IMG/VR virus record: IMGVR_UViG_3300030376_004181
Location: 1-40,660 of that record
DNA length: 40,660 bases
Source: a virus
Taxonomy: Duplodnaviria; Caudoviricetes
Reading direction: 5' to 3' (one strand)
The notes beneath the pieces were generated by a model. That model saw only the letters and a program-made list of their open reading frames with translations, was not told the DNA's origin and searched no databases. Position 1 is the first letter of the stretch. The number at the start of each line of letters is the position of its first letter. The translations under genes and the position numbers were made by a program. Shown piece by piece: positions 1,172-40,441 of this stretch.

Positions 1172-1764
1172 CTACACACCCAGTGTTGCCAACCTCCGCC
1201 TGTAGCCCTGTAAATTAGCCAAGCGCTAACCCTGATATTAGCCTCACCTGAAAAAACGTCTGCTACATAACCTAAAGCAGTACGACTTCTAGCATCCCAA
1301 TACGTTGTCAAGTGTTGCATCAAGCCACTAGCTGTACTAACACTAGACCTCGCTGTAGGATCGCCACCAGATTCACAATCTATAATTTTCAAAAACCTAG
1401 CGGTATCGCTAGCAGGCCCACCGTTCGCTAGTATTGCGTCTTGCACAATTGGCCTCCACCGTTCGACCTCCGGCTTAAAGGTAGCGTTAGGAGAAACAGT
1501 TGAGTACAAACGCACCGAAATGTTCCGTTCCATAGCCCACTGACGATGATGCTTATGCGTATTTGTACCATAAATCCCATCCGTGTTCACGTTCATCCAG
1601 TACTGCAACAACCACACTCTCTCGCTGTCCTCTAACCAGTCATACTCAATAGATATAATGTGATTCTCTATTTTGTCCCAAGGTATGTAAGCTAGAGCTG
1701 TAGCTGACAGTGCGTTGATAGCGAACGTAAATAAAATCGTGCTATAAATAAAGGTCTTTTTCAT
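1168..1764 (-). CDS. exported lytic transglycosylase (SLT/lysozyme-like fold) with signal peptide
   Basis: Signal peptide MKKTFIYSTILFTFAINALSATALA; catalytic CESGG followed by ASGLMQ; DGIYG peptidoglycan-binding-like motif. Confidence 0.8.
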   Translation of the reverse strand: MKKTFIYSTILFTFAINALSATALAYIPWDKIENHIISIEYDWLEDSERVWLLQYWMNVNTDGIYGTNTHKHHRQWAMERNISVRLYSTVSPNATFKPEVERWRPIVQDAILANGGPASDTARFLKIIDCESGGDPTARSSVSTASGLMQHLTTYWDARSRTALGYVADVFSGEANIRVSAWLIYRATGGGWQHWVCS

Positions 1765-2107
1765 TATGGTGTCTCCAAATTGTTAACAGTTCCGCCGTAA
1801 ATTCCGCATCTAAAACAGCTACTTTACCAACTGTCTTTCCTATTTGCGACCTTCTGTCCCCGTGGATAGCAAAGATTACCCACTGATTATTGTGAGCAAC
1901 TTTCCGTATCCTGCTAATCCACGGGAACAGTGTCCAACGCTTGCGATATTTCACTTCAATAGGAATATCTAAGTCCCCCAACCAGATATCGTGAGACTCG
2001 CTACTAGCGCTGGTTCTGTGAGCATCGTTATGCCCCCATTCCATAAGTAAAGCCACTATTTCATTTTCACCCGCAGTTCCTTTTTGTTTTGCTTTAGACA
2101 AAATCAA
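1742..2107 (-). CDS. Holliday junction resolvase, Hjc-like PD-(D/E)xK
   Basis: SKAKQKGTAGENE...HDI...IEVK motif pattern. Confidence 0.75.
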   Translation of the reverse strand: MILSKAKQKGTAGENEIVALLMEWGHNDAHRTSASSESHDIWLGDLDIPIEVKYRKRWTLFPWISRIRKVAHNNQWVIFAIHGDRRSQIGKTVGKVAVLDAEFTAELLTIWRHHNEKDLYL

Positions 2108-2642
2108 ACACTCCTTGTATTTCTGCCCGTTTTTTTTCGACGGTTACGATTGTATCGTTCCTAACTCCTCCATGGGGTACTAAAAGAATTTCTAACATAT
2201 CAAAACCTAAAGTCTTGCCTATGCCCATGGAGTTCCAACCACAACGCACTACGATGGCGTTAGGTTTGCATATCCTTGCGATTTGTTTTTTGATCTCTGA
2301 CCACGGGTTTTGTGTGTCTTCTTGAGTGACTACACGCCCTATCCCGTCGTAGCATTCTTTGATCTGTCTAGAGCTGTACGGTGGGTCAAATAGAACTCCG
2401 TCAACTGACTCATCTTCAAGCAATGAAAGAAAATGCTTAGAGTCGTGATGAAAGTCTGCTTCAAACTCTGGGTTGATGTCGTTTGTGAACTTCATTAAAT
2501 GCTTAAAACAACTGTTACGGACATAAGGATCAACCCAAACTCCCTTGGTCATCACCCTGCGAAGGAGGGAGTTAATGGGTTGAATCCTAAATGTTTCAGA
2601 GTTAGGCATAGCCCATTCTCTATGAAACTGTATTTCTGTCAC
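2094..2642 (-). CDS. putative adenine-specific DNA methyltransferase
   Basis: Catalytic DPPY motif (VLFDPPYS); degenerate SAM-binding VDPY; phage-type AMPNSETF start. Confidence 0.75.
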   Translation of the reverse strand: MTEIQFHREWAMPNSETFRIQPINSLLRRVMTKGVWVDPYVRNSCFKHLMKFTNDINPEFEADFHHDSKHFLSLLEDESVDGVLFDPPYSSRQIKECYDGIGRVVTQEDTQNPWSEIKKQIARICKPNAIVVRCGWNSMGIGKTLGFDMLEILLVPHGGVRNDTIVTVEKKRAEIQGVFDFV

Positions 2643-2830
2643 AAAAGTTCTTTAATGTCTTCTGCAATCGGCCCGTAATGCTGTTCTGCGTAAGCGTCTA
2701 AAGCATCCCGTATCATACCTGATCTAGTTTGACCGTTATGTATCGCTAACTGGTCTACCTTAACTAACAAAGAGTGAGGTATCCGCATAGCAATTAACTG
2801 GTCGTTTTTGTCTTTAAGTGGTGTTTCCAT
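2639..2830 (-). CDS. ribbon-helix-helix (CopG/Arc-like) DNA-binding protein
   Basis: LIAMRIPHSLLVKVDQLA...TRSGMIRDAL pattern; ATG at 2830 has an AGGAG RBS. Confidence 0.75.
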   Translation of the reverse strand: METPLKDKNDQLIAMRIPHSLLVKVDQLAIHNGQTRSGMIRDALDAYAEQHYGPIAEDIKELL

Positions 2831-2832
2831 CG

Positions 2833-2985
2833 TTATTTCTCCTGATGTTTTTGCCCGCATGTAGGGCATTTGTTATTATTATTTTCTATTACTTTTGAGC
2901 CTATGACCCAACCGCAACTACAGCTTATGTAGTACGGTGATTTGGTTCTGAGTTTAGATTTCTTCTGACCGAAATCATCCCACAC
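2833..2985 (-). CDS. 50-aa zinc-ribbon protein (not in the ORF track)
   Basis: Hand translation MWDDFGQKKSKLRTKSPYYISCSCGWVIGSKVIENNNNKCPTCGQKHQEK; TAGTG coupling to ssb; fills the intergenic gap exactly. Confidence 0.7.
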   Translation of the reverse strand: MWDDFGQKKSKLRTKSPYYISCSCGWVIGSKVIENNNNKCPTCGQKHQEK

Positions 2986-3389
2986 TAAAACCAGTCCTCA
3001 TCTTTATCTATTGGCTTACCATCAACTATTGCAGTTTTGCCTTGCCAATCATCTTGCTTAGGCGCTCTAACAATCTGAAATAAATCCCAAACGTTACAGT
3101 CCCAACCAGTTACAGTTTGTCCGTCTTTGTTTTTGTATTGACGGCTGGTAAATTTGCCTCTAACAGCTATCCTGCTACCTTTATCTGTGGCTTTAGCTAT
3201 AGCTTCTGCTAGCGCTGTTGACTCATCTCTGGAGTCTTCCCAAACGCTTAACGTTACCCATGTAGTTTCTTCTGGGCCTGTCTTTACGGCTAACGCATTC
3301 TCATAAACTGCTTTGCCTGTGCCAGTGACCTTGGGTAGCCACTCTCTGCCTAGGTTTCCCATTTGGAAACCGATTCCCTCATTCAACAT
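2985..3389 (-). CDS. ssb: single-stranded DNA-binding protein
   Basis: GNLG, TTWV..SVW, KGSRIAVRGKFTSRQYKNKDGQ motifs; acidic-aromatic C-terminal tail DEDWF. Confidence 0.85.
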   Translation of the reverse strand: MLNEGIGFQMGNLGREWLPKVTGTGKAVYENALAVKTGPEETTWVTLSVWEDSRDESTALAEAIAKATDKGSRIAVRGKFTSRQYKNKDGQTVTGWDCNVWDLFQIVRAPKQDDWQGKTAIVDGKPIDKDEDWF

Positions 3390-3795
3390 TATTGTTCTCC
3401 TTTTTAATTAATTGTTGATGTAATACATAATACTCATCTGATGTCCAAAGTGACAACCCAAGACTTAAGCGCATCCCAATCCGTTTTATACCATCGCTGA
3501 CACTGGCTTTACTGTTCTGACCTGAGTGCTTACTAGGTCTTTCCACCTCGCCAATCTCTTGAATGGTGACTTGTTTGCCATCTATGGTAAAAGTGCATTC
3601 AAGAATGCAACCCTCAACAATGCCCTCTGGACTTCTGATAAGTTCTACTATTCGCATGTCAAACGGACCTAAATGTAACAACAAAAATTGCGTTATATCT
3701 CCGTGGCTGACATACCTGTCACCCCTACCTGTCGGCTTTACTTTAACGAAAGTTTCCGGTATTGGTTTTGATAATTTGATTAATTGTTCAGGCAT
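3379..3795 (-). CDS. Rad52/Sak-like single-strand annealing protein
   Basis: YVSHGDIT...KASVSDGIKR..MRLSLGLSLW matches the Rad52/22 family pattern; adjacent to ssb and an exonuclease. Confidence 0.7.
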   Translation of the reverse strand: MPEQLIKLSKPIPETFVKVKPTGRGDRYVSHGDITQFLLLHLGPFDMRIVELIRSPEGIVEGCILECTFTIDGKQVTIQEIGEVERPSKHSGQNSKASVSDGIKRIGMRLSLGLSLWTSDEYYVLHQQLIKKENNNVE

Positions 3796-9954: not shown

Positions 9955-10158
9955 CTATCCCCCGTATGGTCCTGCCCAATTTGGACCAGTCATATTTTTA
10001 AATTCGCCGGTGCCTAATTGGGTTACACCGTTAAACCTTCGGTCACGCTCCCACCGTAGCGCTTTATGCGCTTGACGATTACGGAGACGCTCTAATCGTA
10101 ACTGATTAAGTTCACGGTCACGGCGTGCTTTACGTAACTTACGTTTGTACTCTTCCAT
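9955..10158 (-). CDS. Arg-rich first early protein
   Basis: Start MEEYKRK at 10158; its SD lies inside hammerhead stem III. Confidence 0.7.
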   Translation of the reverse strand: MEEYKRKLRKARRDRELNQLRLERLRNRQAHKALRWERDRRFNGVTQLGTGEFKNMTGPNWAGPYGG

Positions 10159-10162
10159 GTTG

Positions 10163-10219
10163 CCTTCTTTCTGCATCCCTTACGGGTGCTCATCAGTGTG
10201 GTCAATTCCACAGAGAAGG
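10163..10219 (-). ncRNA. type III hammerhead-like ribozyme (variant core)
   Basis: CCUUC-UC/UGUGG-AAUUGA-CCACA-CUGAUGA-GCACCC-GUAA-GGGAUGC-A-GAAA-GAAGG: stems I-III and core present; one extra A before GAAA. Confidence 0.7.
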
Positions 10220-10229
10220 AAAGAAAGAT

Positions 10230-10500
10230 TCTTATTTATCCTTAGGTCCATACGGACTCCATCGGTGGTATACCGGCAGGTACCGGCTAAGCGATTATAC
10301 TAGGGCTTTCTATCCATCATCACGGTGGAACCTTCCCTTTAATATCCCTTTTTCTCATCAGGATAAAAGACTCGCATATTTTGGGGACTTTCAACCCTAT
10401 GGAAGATTTCTTTTACTAGCCGGATGTCTCCGCTTTACCTTCCTTTTCCTGACCCCTACCTCAGGGCTTGAGTTGATCCGGTTTCTGTTTCAACTTCAGT
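10230..10500 (-). ncRNA. long structured leader/ncRNA upstream of the hammerhead
   Basis: No credible ORF; four long-range 7-8 bp helices with minus-strand G-U pairs, plus local hairpins. Confidence 0.55.
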
Positions 10501-10641
10501 AATAGTAACGATAGCGCTATATGGGTCATAAATGGTGTCACATACCATGATTTAAACAGATACCGCTATCTAAAAAACAGATGGTTAACCGGACCGATTC
10601 ACCTAGCATAGATTTAAAAATGATGCAAATCAGGCTAAAAG

Positions 10642-10678
10642 CGAACATACGTTCGTAAAAAAAGCGAACATACGTTCG
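10642..10678. promoter_or_regulatory. tandem LexA (SOS) boxes, Gram-positive type
   Basis: CGAACATACGTTCG at 10642-10655 and 10665-10678; matches CGAAC-N4-GTTCG. Confidence 0.7.
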
Positions 10679-10689
10679 TAAAATAGACC

Positions 10690-10880: not shown

Positions 10881-10913
10881 TATAAAGTCTAACCCTCTAC
10901 CTTAGGTTTAGGG

Positions 10914-10942
10914 CGAACGTACGTTCGGCGAACATATGTTCG
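10914..10942. promoter_or_regulatory. second pair of LexA (SOS) boxes
   Basis: CGAACGTACGTTCG at 10914-10927 and CGAACATATGTTCG at 10929-10942. Confidence 0.7.
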
Positions 10943-11000: not shown

Positions 11001-11104
11001 GGTGTTTTGGGGGTTTTGGTTTAGTGGTTTGTGTGTTGTGGGGGTGTTTTTTTGTGTGTGTTTGGGTGTTTTGTTTGTTGGTGTTTGGTTGATTTGTTTT
11101 GGGG
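11001..11104 (+). other. G/T-only low-complexity tract, candidate genome terminus/packaging region
   Basis: About 100 nt almost free of A and C, after a C-run and just upstream of the terminase operon. Confidence 0.45.
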
Positions 11105-11378
11105 CGTAGTTTCCCTTGGGAACCTCCCAAGCATTGGGGTTGCTTTGACCTTGTAATCGCTTTGTCCTGTGCGTTACGCCCCTGTGCGCTCATTTCCTTT
11201 TTGCGTTGTCACAGGGGACCGTTACCCTTCTGACGGGTGACTCACCGAGGGTTAGTCGGGCGCTGCTTACAGGCGGTGTTGTGGTTGGTCAAGGGTCCAC
11301 AATCCCCTTTTTGTTTTTAGGTATGGGTTAGGATACCCTTTCGGGTATTTAGTTACAACATGGTGTTGGGAGTTTTTT

Positions 11379-38929: not shown

Positions 38930-39111
38930 CTCTTGAAGCACTGTTCTTAGTTATTCTTACAGCTTGTCTTGTGCCTTGGATGGCTTGGATTTCTACCGTG
39001 TTAATTAAGATTGAGATACGTTTAGCTAAGGGTGACGAAGCTTTAGAGACTGCTGAAGAACGGTTAGCTGACCATGAGCAACGCATCAGGGCGTTAGAGT
39101 CTGTCCGTTAG
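38926..39111 (+). CDS. TM plus coiled-coil protein (allele of 986..1171)
   Basis: Near-identical protein. Confidence 0.8.
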   Translation: MTLEALFLVILTACLVPWMAWISTVLIKIEIRLAKGDEALETAEERLADHEQRIRALESVR

Positions 39112-39457
39112 CCTTGTCTAGTTGATGTCGCCAGATCATTAATAGTTCTGACGCAAAGTCAGCATCCATAACAGCTACAGTGCCTACTTGCTTGCCTACT
39201 GTGGACCTTCTGTCCCCGTGTATGGCAAAGATAACCCACTTGTTGTCGTCTGATACGTTACGTATGCGAGCTATCCACTTGAACAAAGACCATGCTTTAC
39301 GGTACTTGACTTCCACTGTCACGCCTGTGTCCCCCAACCAGATATCATGCGATTCAGTGGAAGCCGAAGTCCTTTTCACATCTTTGTGTCCCCACTGTAT
39401 CAAGAGATCACGGATGATGTTCTCCCCTACAGTGCCTTTCTGTCGTGCTTTACTCAC
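39086..39457 (-). CDS. Holliday junction resolvase (allele of 1742..2107)
   Basis: SKARQKG..GE...HDIWLG...VEVK. Confidence 0.75.
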   Translation of the reverse strand: MSKARQKGTVGENIIRDLLIQWGHKDVKRTSASTESHDIWLGDTGVTVEVKYRKAWSLFKWIARIRNVSDDNKWVIFAIHGDRRSTVGKQVGTVAVMDADFASELLMIWRHQLDKANGQTLTP

Positions 39458-39606
39458 TGTTTGACGTAAGGCACGTTGTCTATGTAGATGTTTATTATTC
39501 TACGTAGCATACCTGAACGTGACCTGCCTTCCTCAAGGGCTAGCAAATCTACTTGGTCAAGTAATTCTTTGGGCATTCGTAAGGCTACGAGTTGATCGTT
39601 ACTCAT
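39454..39606 (-). CDS. ribbon-helix-helix protein (allele of 2639..2830; not in the ORF track)
   Basis: Hand translation MSNDQLVALRMPKELLDQVDLLALEEGRSRSGMLRRIINIYIDNVPYVKQ; coupled on both sides. Confidence 0.75.
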   Translation of the reverse strand: MSNDQLVALRMPKELLDQVDLLALEEGRSRSGMLRRIINIYIDNVPYVKQ

Positions 39607-40037
39607 TAGAATGGCATCTCCTTAGCTTCTTGGCGTGCATCTCCCCAGTGTTCAGAGTCTGAGTCTACGATGGCTGTTCGCCCTGCCCAGTCGTCTTGCT
39701 TGGGTTTGATTACGTTGGCTACATCCCACACGTTACAGTTCCAAGAGGTTTTCATTTCGCCTTCCTTGTTCTTGTAACTGCTTTGTGAGAACTTACCTCG
39801 TATCATTACACGTGAACCTTTGCCTGTTTTATCTGCAATGGTTTCTGCTAATGCTGTTGACCCGTCTCTACTGTCCTCCCATATCGTGAGGTTAACCCAG
39901 ATAGTAGGGTCGTCTTTCTTTACTTGGTAGGCTAATGCGTTTTCGTATACGACTTTGCCTACTGAGTCTATTACTTTCATTTGCCATTCTCTTCCGAGAT
40001 TGCCGTGAAGGTAGTGTGTGTGTTCGTTTATACTCAT
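39606..40037 (-). CDS. ssb: single-stranded DNA-binding protein (diverged allele)
   Basis: GNLGREW, WVNLTIW, KGSRVMIRGKF, C-terminal MPF. Confidence 0.85.
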   Translation of the reverse strand: MSINEHTHYLHGNLGREWQMKVIDSVGKVVYENALAYQVKKDDPTIWVNLTIWEDSRDGSTALAETIADKTGKGSRVMIRGKFSQSSYKNKEGEMKTSWNCNVWDVANVIKPKQDDWAGRTAIVDSDSEHWGDARQEAKEMPF

Positions 40038-40441
40038 TCTTCTCCTTTACTGAGTTCTTTGTGTAGTCGGTAGCTTTCGTCACCTGTCCACATGCTTAAT
40101 CCGAGAGAACACCGCATCGCAATACGTTTTATGCCGTCGCTGACTGAACTCTTGGCGTTCTGACCTGAGTGCTTACTAGGTCTTTCTACCTCTCCTATCT
40201 CTTGGATAGTCGTAACCCTGCCGTCTATGGTGAAGGTGCATTCAAGGATGCAACCCTCAACGATACCTTCAGGGCTACGTATCAGCTCTACTATTCGCAT
40301 GTCAAACGGTCCGAGATGAGCGAGCAGGAATTGTGTTATGTCTCCGTGACTAACGTACCTGTCTCCTCTTCCTGTTGGTTTAACTTTTACATACGCTTCT
40401 GGTATGGGTTTAGCTAACTTGGCTAGCTGGGATGTCATCAT
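40034..40441 (-). CDS. Rad52/Sak-like annealing protein (allele of 3379..3795)
   Basis: Core nearly identical in amino acids to the left copy. Confidence 0.7.
   Translation of the reverse strand: MMTSQLAKLAKPIPEAYVKVKPTGRGDRYVSHGDITQFLLAHLGPFDMRIVELIRSPEGIVEGCILECTFTIDGRVTTIQEIGEVERPSKHSGQNAKSSVSDGIKRIAMRCSLGLSMWTGDESYRLHKELSKGEE

What the first reader, a model, noticed from the sequence alone, without database searches (positions are those of the whole stretch)
10230..10500. About 270-nt leader RNA with interlocked long-range helices
Seen on the minus strand: a contiguous 31-nt segment (10423-10393) supplies four successive strands pairing with separate downstream sites: CCGGCUAG/UUAGCCGG (10283-10290), UAAAAGA/UCUUUUA (10364-10370), AAUCUUCC/GGAAGGUU (10329-10336) and UAGGGUU/AGCCCUA (10301-10307). 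The last three cross each other (multi-pseudoknot or switch). Local hairpins add GUUGA/UCAAC, CCUGA/UCAGG and UAUCC/GGAUA. I do not recognise the family. Inference: a first-transcribed, complex ncRNA whose 3' end is set by the hammerhead.
Basis: partly seen in the sequence, partly recalled or inferred. Interest (0 to 1): 0.78.

Follow-up and report, generated by a model that had tools for sequence, protein, structure and literature searches.

The report
Ribozyme-capped phage RNA with partner protein
A marine phage begins its early genes with a conserved, folded 290-base RNA of no catalogued family that a hammerhead-like ribozyme would cut free, likely unmasking the next gene, whose small arginine-rich protein is predicted to be the RNA's partner.

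Summary
The RNA is real; the proposed multi-pseudoknot is not. The four long-range helices exist in this window but are fully paired in only 0, 1, 1 and 0 of 10 homologues, the background rate. Homologues instead support a nested, modular fold: consensus-fold z -5.2, 0 of 100 column shuffles; 23 pairs with compensatory changes. The element (10500-10213, minus strand) ends in a hammerhead-like motif with an extra A in 18 of 18 loci, whose stem III hides the ribosome-binding site of a 67-aa arginine-rich first gene. Relatives carry either this RNA (14 loci) or an unrelated one (4 loci) in the same slot, and RNA type tracks the protein family (13:0 and 0:4, one exception) although hammerhead stems are shared by both types. 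Best model: cleavage frees the RNA, its pyrimidine tail swaps from the Shine-Dalgarno to an internal strand, and the RNA works with the first-gene protein. Cleavage, tail swap and binding are untested. No Rfam family passes; twister membership fails.

The parts
10502..10513 (-). Putative -10 promoter region (two overlapping TAnnnT hexamers) just before the conserved block
   Evidence: By eye in homologue upstream sequences; the sigma-70 scan did not call a promoter here; inferred
10213..10500 (-). Type A structured RNA, 288 nt, from conserved start to predicted cleavage site
   Evidence: 11 full or near-full and 3 partial homologues; consensus fold z -5.2; longest sense stop-free run 31 codons
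10452..10494 (-). 5' module: hairpins P1 (10494-10472) and P2 (10467-10452); exchanged for a different two-hairpin module in 5 of 11 sequences
10401..10450 (-). Invariant purine strand (10450-10438) and P3 (10443-10437 with 10407-10401) enclosing hairpin P4
   Evidence: P3 fully paired in 7 of 10 homologues, two pairs with two-sided changes; same strand pairs with the 3' tail in 99.2% of cells
10384..10397 (-). P5 hairpin with near-invariant 8-nt loop resembling the twister L4 loop; possible 3-bp pseudoknot of 10394-10392 with 10289-10287
   Evidence: 97% paired; pseudoknot 97% paired, one-sided changes only
10290..10377 (-). Three-way-junction domain P6-P9, present in three sequence versions
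   Evidence: P6a 10 of 10, P8 7 of 10, P9 8 of 10 homologues fully paired, 4-bp background mean 5.05; consensus z only -2.3 on this part
10237..10286 (-). P10 hairpin and P12/P11 stem with a highly conserved internal loop
   Evidence: P10, P11 100% paired with two-sided changes; 3' module z -4.8, 0 of 200
10213..10229 (-). Invariant pyrimidine tail, shared by both RNA types; three possible partners
10163..10219 (-). Type III hammerhead-like motif; predicted cut between 10213 and 10212; extra A at 10172; stem III 3' strand is the Shine-Dalgarno of ORF1
   Evidence: 18 distinct loci, 98.4% of cells paired, 34 two-sided cells, 0 of 500 shuffles
9955..10158 (-). ORF1, 67 aa, 13 Arg + 5 Lys, predicted single helix over residues 2-37
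   Evidence: 7 relatives in the protein collection; no Pfam or PHROG family

Best explanation
The stretch is a conserved, nested multi-domain RNA at the head of the phage's leftward operon that the adjoining hammerhead-like motif likely cuts free, after which its pyrimidine tail is predicted to swap from the first gene's ribosome-binding site to an internal strand, and the released RNA likely acts as a matched pair with that gene's arginine-rich protein. Step 1 (inferred): transcription starts near 10500. Step 2 (shown by comparison): the RNA folds as P1-P12, not as the proposed pseudoknots. Step 3 (inferred): in the precursor the tail pairs with the Shine-Dalgarno, either as hammerhead stem III or in a slipped, inactive register, so ORF1 is masked until cleavage at 10213/10212. 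Step 4 (predicted): in the cut product the tail pairs with 10450-10438, displacing P3, which closes the RNA, shields its 3' end and frees the ORF1 message. Step 5 (inferred from co-occurrence only): ORF1 protein binds the RNA; the complex is an early, exchangeable host-takeover or counter-defence unit and may feed back on its own synthesis, in the manner of the lambda N leader with a ribozyme in place of RNase III.
For: Fold: 78.6% of cells paired, 23 of 61 pairs with two-sided changes, 0 of 500 shuffles, on an unfitted alignment of 11; consensus z -5.2, 0 of 100 column shuffles. Hammerhead: core invariant except position 7, stems I and II covary, 18 of 18 loci. Shine-Dalgarno inside stem III and an AUG a few bases on in 18 of 18. 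Tail capture: 11 bp kept in 99.2% of cells, 2 of 300 column shuffles; two A-U pairs of P3 are broken in 2 of 11 sequences while the same bases stay paired to the tail in 11 of 11; at 37 C capture has probability above 0.45 in the cut product of 8 of 11 sequences and at most 0.22 in the precursor of all 11; the unrelated type B/C consensus also pairs the tail internally. Pairing with ORF1: type A with family 1 in 13 of 14 loci, type B/C with family 2 in 4 of 4, while all three hammerhead stem II versions occur with both RNA types; the two protein families show no profile similarity. Precedent: a hammerhead variant 13 nt before the first early gene of haloviruses HF1/HF2 with a mapped 5' end near its cut site (PMC3088659); lambda nutL lies about 200 bp before N and mediates N autorepression (PMC5725501).
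Against: No single type A sequence folds better than shuffles (z -1.56 to +1.26). A structure-blind count of covarying 3-bp stacks was not significant (135 of 400). The extra A between stem II and the GAAA is not among the variants in the section read, no window hit reaches Rfam's hammerhead models and the active register is the minority fold in most precursors, so cleavage may be slow or absent. The RNA-protein match rests on few independent lineages (three of four type B/C loci are close kin), L245 breaks it, and neighbours are inherited together. One contig from an RNA library spans the cut site. 25 of 30 terminase relatives lack the cassette.
Confidence: 0.4

Rival explanations
1. The RNA is released by the ribozyme and acts alone (decoy or scaffold for a host protein, or an antisense RNA using its tail on the purine-rich ribosome-binding sites of the early genes); ORF1 only travels with it by linkage.
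For: Same structural and hammerhead evidence; L245 has type A RNA with an unrelated ORF1; the six intergenic repeats end in similar purine-rich sites.
Against: No mixed RNA/ORF1 combination among 17 classifiable loci although hammerhead stems are shared; the tail is predicted to be sequestered in the cut RNA in 8 of 11.
Confidence: 0.22
2. It is a cis-acting leader: a ligand- or protein-controlled switch between P3 and tail capture decides whether the hammerhead forms and whether ORF1 is translated; the cut-off RNA is waste.
For: The tail has three mutually exclusive partners; both P3 and the capture helix are conserved; natural regulated hammerheads in phages were proposed in PMC3088659.
Against: Two unrelated 290-330 nt RNAs fill the slot, and much of the fold (P5-P12) is not needed for such a switch; capture is at most 0.22 in precursors.
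Confidence: 0.17
3. It is an N/nut-type antitermination system: ORF1 binds the leader and modifies RNA polymerase for the early operon.
For: Arginine-rich, mostly helical or disordered first-gene product behind a long structured leader; lambda arrangement.
Against: No terminator-like site on the minus strand between 10300 and 6410, and no more terminators overall than shuffles (8 against 6.9); no similarity to any named PHROG; cutting would untether the RNA from the transcript.
Confidence: 0.1
4. The RNA is itself a new or degenerate nucleolytic ribozyme built from twister-like parts (P5 loop and the P12 internal loop).
For: Sub-threshold Rfam twister-P3 hits over the P5 loop in 2 homologues (29.2 and 24.1 bits against 39.9); the P12 loop has invariant GA and UAA in 14 of 14.
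Against: The T1-equivalent pairing has a central mismatch in 11 of 11 and no T2 partner follows; no hit in the window itself; a second cutter 45 nt from the hammerhead would be redundant.
Confidence: 0.07
5. The first reader's interlocked multi-pseudoknot is the working structure.
For: Strands are present; 1 of 1000 shuffles; core of the fourth helix can pair in most homologues.
Against: 0, 1, 1, 0 of 10 homologues fully paired, equal to background; absent as an arrangement from 10 of 10 homologues.
Confidence: 0.02

Closest known systems
HHphage hammerhead variant of haloviruses HF1/HF2 (Perreault et al. 2011, PMC3088659; passages, section 8 and part 1 of section 11 read)
   Same: Core-variant hammerhead just before the first early gene of a phage; transcript 5' end mapped near the cut site there.
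   Different: Here the insertion is an A before the GAAA, stem III itself is the Shine-Dalgarno, and a 290-nt conserved RNA precedes it; the passages read describe no such upstream RNA.
Phage lambda pL leader: nutL, RNase III site and N (PMC5725501 passages read; RNase III role seen only as a reference title there; arginine-rich motif of N recalled)
   Same: Long structured leader, a processing site and an arginine-rich first-gene product.
   Different: No sequence similarity to N families, ribozyme instead of RNase III, no intrinsic terminators in the first 3.8 kb, two exchangeable RNA/protein sets.
Structured motifs and ribozymes found beside self-cleaving ribozymes in phage regions (review PMC6765202, passages and section 13 read; RAGATH name recalled and seen in search listing)
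   Same: Uncharacterised conserved RNA next to a self-cleaving ribozyme near phage genes.
   Different: No Rfam family matches; larger and modular.
Type-P3 twister ribozyme (Rfam RF03154)
   Same: P5 loop resembles its L4 loop; P12 loop resembles its catalytic internal loop.
   Different: Below gathering score; pseudoknot pairings not met.

Membership tests
Hammerhead ribozyme, type III | CUGANGA core, GAAA and cleavage triplet | tested here: met
   Invariant in 18 of 18 loci except position 7
Hammerhead ribozyme, type III | Three stems, I and II closed and covarying | tested here: met
   98.4% of cells paired, 34 two-sided cells, 0 of 500 shuffles
Hammerhead ribozyme, type III | Stem II followed directly by the GAAA | tested here: not met
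   One extra A in 18 of 18; filed as hammerhead-like variant
Hammerhead ribozyme, type III | Rfam RF00008 gathering score | tested here: not met
   No hit in the window; 18.7 against 48.5 bits in L164
Hammerhead ribozyme, type III | Self-cleavage | not testable with these tools
   Only contigs were available
Twister ribozyme (P3 type) | L4-like hairpin loop | tested here: inconclusive
   Sub-threshold hits in 2 of the 6 type A loci given, none in the window
Twister ribozyme (P3 type) | T1 and T2 pseudoknots (positions read off the Rfam consensus; role recalled) | tested here: not met
   T1 fully paired in 0 of 11; no T2 partner after the UAA strand
Lambda N/nut antitermination | Small arginine-rich first-gene product (recalled) | tested here: met
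   13 Arg in 67 aa; 8-14 Arg in 17 of 18 distinct loci
Lambda N/nut antitermination | Homology to N-type proteins | tested here: not met
   No named PHROG for 16 members; no Pfam; no PDB hit below E 0.065
Lambda N/nut antitermination | Terminators downstream to be read through | tested here: inconclusive
   No intrinsic terminator-like site on the minus strand 10300-6410; Rho-dependent sites not tested
Lambda N/nut antitermination | boxA/boxB elements and protein binding | not tested
   none
Any Rfam 15 family (large phage or marine ncRNAs included) | Gathering-score match | tested here: not met
   0 hits in the window, none at E<=10 over the element, none above gathering in 14 loci

The most novel reading that the evidence does not exclude
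A new class of phage early cassette: a self-maturing ribonucleoprotein in which a hammerhead variant releases a large structured RNA, the RNA's tail swap switches on translation of its own cognate arginine-rich protein, and whole RNA-protein sets are exchanged between phages like anti-defence modules.
Probability: 0.25. Interest if true: 0.85.

Novelty: new variant of a known kind. Interest (0 to 1): 0.62.

Why it matters
[quoted passage not shown] This cassette gives a compact, testable case: a 360-nt transcript and a 67-aa protein suffice to ask whether a phage hammerhead exists to release a functional RNA and to time translation of its partner. It also supplies two uncatalogued RNA families and a hammerhead core variant fixed in 18 loci.

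Tried and rejected
BLAST of the region against 50,697 phage records gave only 25-nt chance hits. Rfam: nothing at gathering score; osmY, MIAT, ceN108, CRISPR-DR17, sR7 and Hrs13 hits are sub-threshold and treated as chance. No tRNA/tmRNA. Coding explanation rejected: the antisense 125-aa ORF frame is open for 95 codons in the window but that frame is broken in homologues. Rows dropped: 21 of 27 loci, 35 of 39, 29 of 32 and 107 of 119 were chance pattern matches; L228 duplicates L003. The metagenome scan covered 34 of 64 parts. The RNA pattern found nothing in GTDB genomes; terminase relatives there lie in four MAG contigs of four phyla and do not identify the host; WhiB points to an actinobacterial host. 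ORF1-based scans found no new loci; the Atlas gave no usable hit. Metatranscriptome contigs of one study cover 10020-10402 in relatives but cannot show strand, ends or level, and their stop at 10402 has loose ends (a different 5' module), so they are not counted as expression evidence. The structure-blind stack count was not significant. In one search the linker column was mis-anchored for three sequences and is not used; one search is used instead. MAFFT misregisters P8 by one base in several rows, hence the slack test. The intergenic repeats are not matched to RNA type (present with type A and type B, absent from L003, L040, L017), so they were rejected as specific targets. Literature searches found no description of this element; supplements of PMC3088659 (11 files) and 7 files of PMC10690425 gave no match, but two large files of the latter could not be searched, so the motif may be among its 10,006 candidates. 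PMC126142 was not held.

Full report
Context. The window is a whole 40.7-kb virus record with a rightward terminase/structural arm from about 11.5 kb and a leftward arm of small and replication genes, including a WhiB-like regulator; holders are marine. The finding lies at the head of the leftward arm. No Rfam family reaches its threshold in the window or E 10 over the element, and no isolated phage has a similar stretch.

Observation. The four strand pairs and three hairpins are present as written. Four successive 7-bp strands within 31 nt occurred in 1 of 1000 shuffles, but the statistic was tailored to the case, and 10 of 10 homologues show at most two such strands. The single-sequence fold is ordinary (z -0.74; -1.56 to +1.26 in 11 type A sequences).

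Homologues. Terminase-anchored loci (79) and pattern scans gave 18 distinct loci, the window included, with the same hammerhead-like motif. Fourteen carry this RNA (type A: 11 full or nearly full, 3 partial), four carry a different RNA (type B/C: L108, L222, L236, L017). Among 30 terminase loci with at least 3 kb upstream, 5 have the motif, all at 90-99% terminase identity; the 25 at 69-89% lack it. The cassette is thus confined to one subclade. Nothing was found in GTDB genomes.

Structure. My model was drawn from these sequences, which favours it, so I added two controls. The consensus fold beats column shuffles that keep relatedness: z -5.2, 0 of 100 for the whole, -4.8 for the 3' module, only -2.3 (6 of 200) for the central domain, -3.4 for type B/C. 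A looser, structure-blind count of covarying stacks did not separate from its null (135 of 400). The RNA is mosaic: two versions of the 5' module and three of the central domain occur in several combinations. The only pseudoknot candidate left is 3 bp between the P5 loop and 10289-10287, 97% paired but with one-sided changes only.

Hammerhead-like motif. The core is invariant except position 7, stems I and II covary (98.4% paired, 0 of 500), and the predicted cut is 10213/10212. An extra A precedes the GAAA in 18 of 18; it is not among the variants in section 8 of PMC3088659, so activity is open. The 3' strand of stem III is the Shine-Dalgarno of ORF1. The 17-nt tail can also pair with that strand in a slipped register that buries the catalytic GAAA, and this is the majority precursor fold in many sequences.

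Tail swap. The tail's third partner is the invariant strand 10450-10438: 11 bp, 99.2% of cells, 2 of 300 column shuffles (statistic designed afterwards). Predicted capture is above 0.45 in the cut product of 8 of 11 sequences and at most 0.22 in precursors. Type B/C also folds its tail inward, though not beyond chance (26 of 300), and single-sequence duplex energies are unremarkable in all 14. This step is a prediction.

ORF1. A 60-81 aa ORF follows in all 18 loci, arginine-rich in 17; the window's is predicted as one helix plus a low-confidence tail and has no known family. Type A goes with family 1 in 13 of 14 loci (L245 has another protein) and type B/C with family 2 in 4 of 4; the families are not detectably related. 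All three stem II versions of the intervening hammerhead occur with both RNA types, which argues against plain linkage, but the lineages are few and related, so the Fisher value of that table (0.0004) overstates the case.

Comparison. It works most like the HF1/HF2 hammerhead before a first early gene (PMC3088659) combined with the lambda N leader layout (PMC5725501), but it is a member of neither: no N homology, no intrinsic terminators in the first 3.8 kb. Two homologues give sub-threshold twister-P3 hits and the P12 loop looks like a twister active-site loop, but the pseudoknot pairings fail in 11 of 11. Earlier notes of this scan describe promoter-RNA-hammerhead leaders in other phages; they are unchecked leads, and none matched this sequence. 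Eight literature searches found no description; two large supplementary files of PMC10690425 could not be searched. Papers seen: PMC3088659 passages, sections 8 and 11 part 1, supplements searched; PMC6765202 passages and section 13; PMC5725501 passages; PMC10690425 abstract, section 23, 7 supplements searched. Domain labels P1-P12 and types A, B/C are mine; twister T1/T2 roles and the arginine-rich motif of N are recalled.

Expression. Contigs from four metatranscriptome runs of one study cover part of the element in relatives about 90% alike, one spanning the cut site; contigs show neither strand nor ends, so transcription and cleavage remain unshown.

Verdict. A real, uncatalogued, nested structured RNA (about 0.9), probably released by a hammerhead variant (about 0.65), with a predicted tail swap and a likely cognate protein (whole mechanism 0.4). 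The interlocked pseudoknots are a coincidence of this one sequence. Interest 0.62.

Noticed in passing
window 9951-9890, 9440-9375, 9207-9147, 8820-8751, 8447-8382, 7839-7776 (minus strand): Six copies of a 60-70 nt hairpin repeat, each ending in the ribosome-binding site of an early gene; 33 distinct copies in nine loci give a consensus fold at z -14. Possibly processing sites or an unknown small ribozyme; weak Rfam osmY hits.
   Followed up: partly
window 11090-11330: A second conserved structured non-coding element ahead of the rightward operon, found in 14 of 79 terminase loci, consensus z -8.3 on the plus strand and -7.2 on the minus strand; covered by contigs of RNA libraries.
   Followed up: partly
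L108:804-1088, L236:350-648 (minus), L222, L017:4481-4806 (minus): A second uncatalogued 285-326 nt structured RNA (type B/C) in the same slot, with 14 two-sided pairs among 4 sequences.
   Followed up: partly
window 10637-10682 and 10909-10942: Four near-palindromic 15-nt repeats upstream of the element, likely protein-binding operators or origin iterons.
   Followed up: no
window 39089-40441 versus 1745-3795: RusA-like resolvase, SSB and annealing-protein genes occur twice, near both ends of the record; possible chimeric end or duplicated module.
   Followed up: no
L003, L040, L017 downstream of the hammerhead: These relatives lack the window's repeat and share a different intergenic repeat.
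   Followed up: no
L302:1540-1560, L286, L285: The same 8-nt hairpin loop as P5, closed by longer stems, in unrelated viral contigs with no Rfam match.
   Followed up: no
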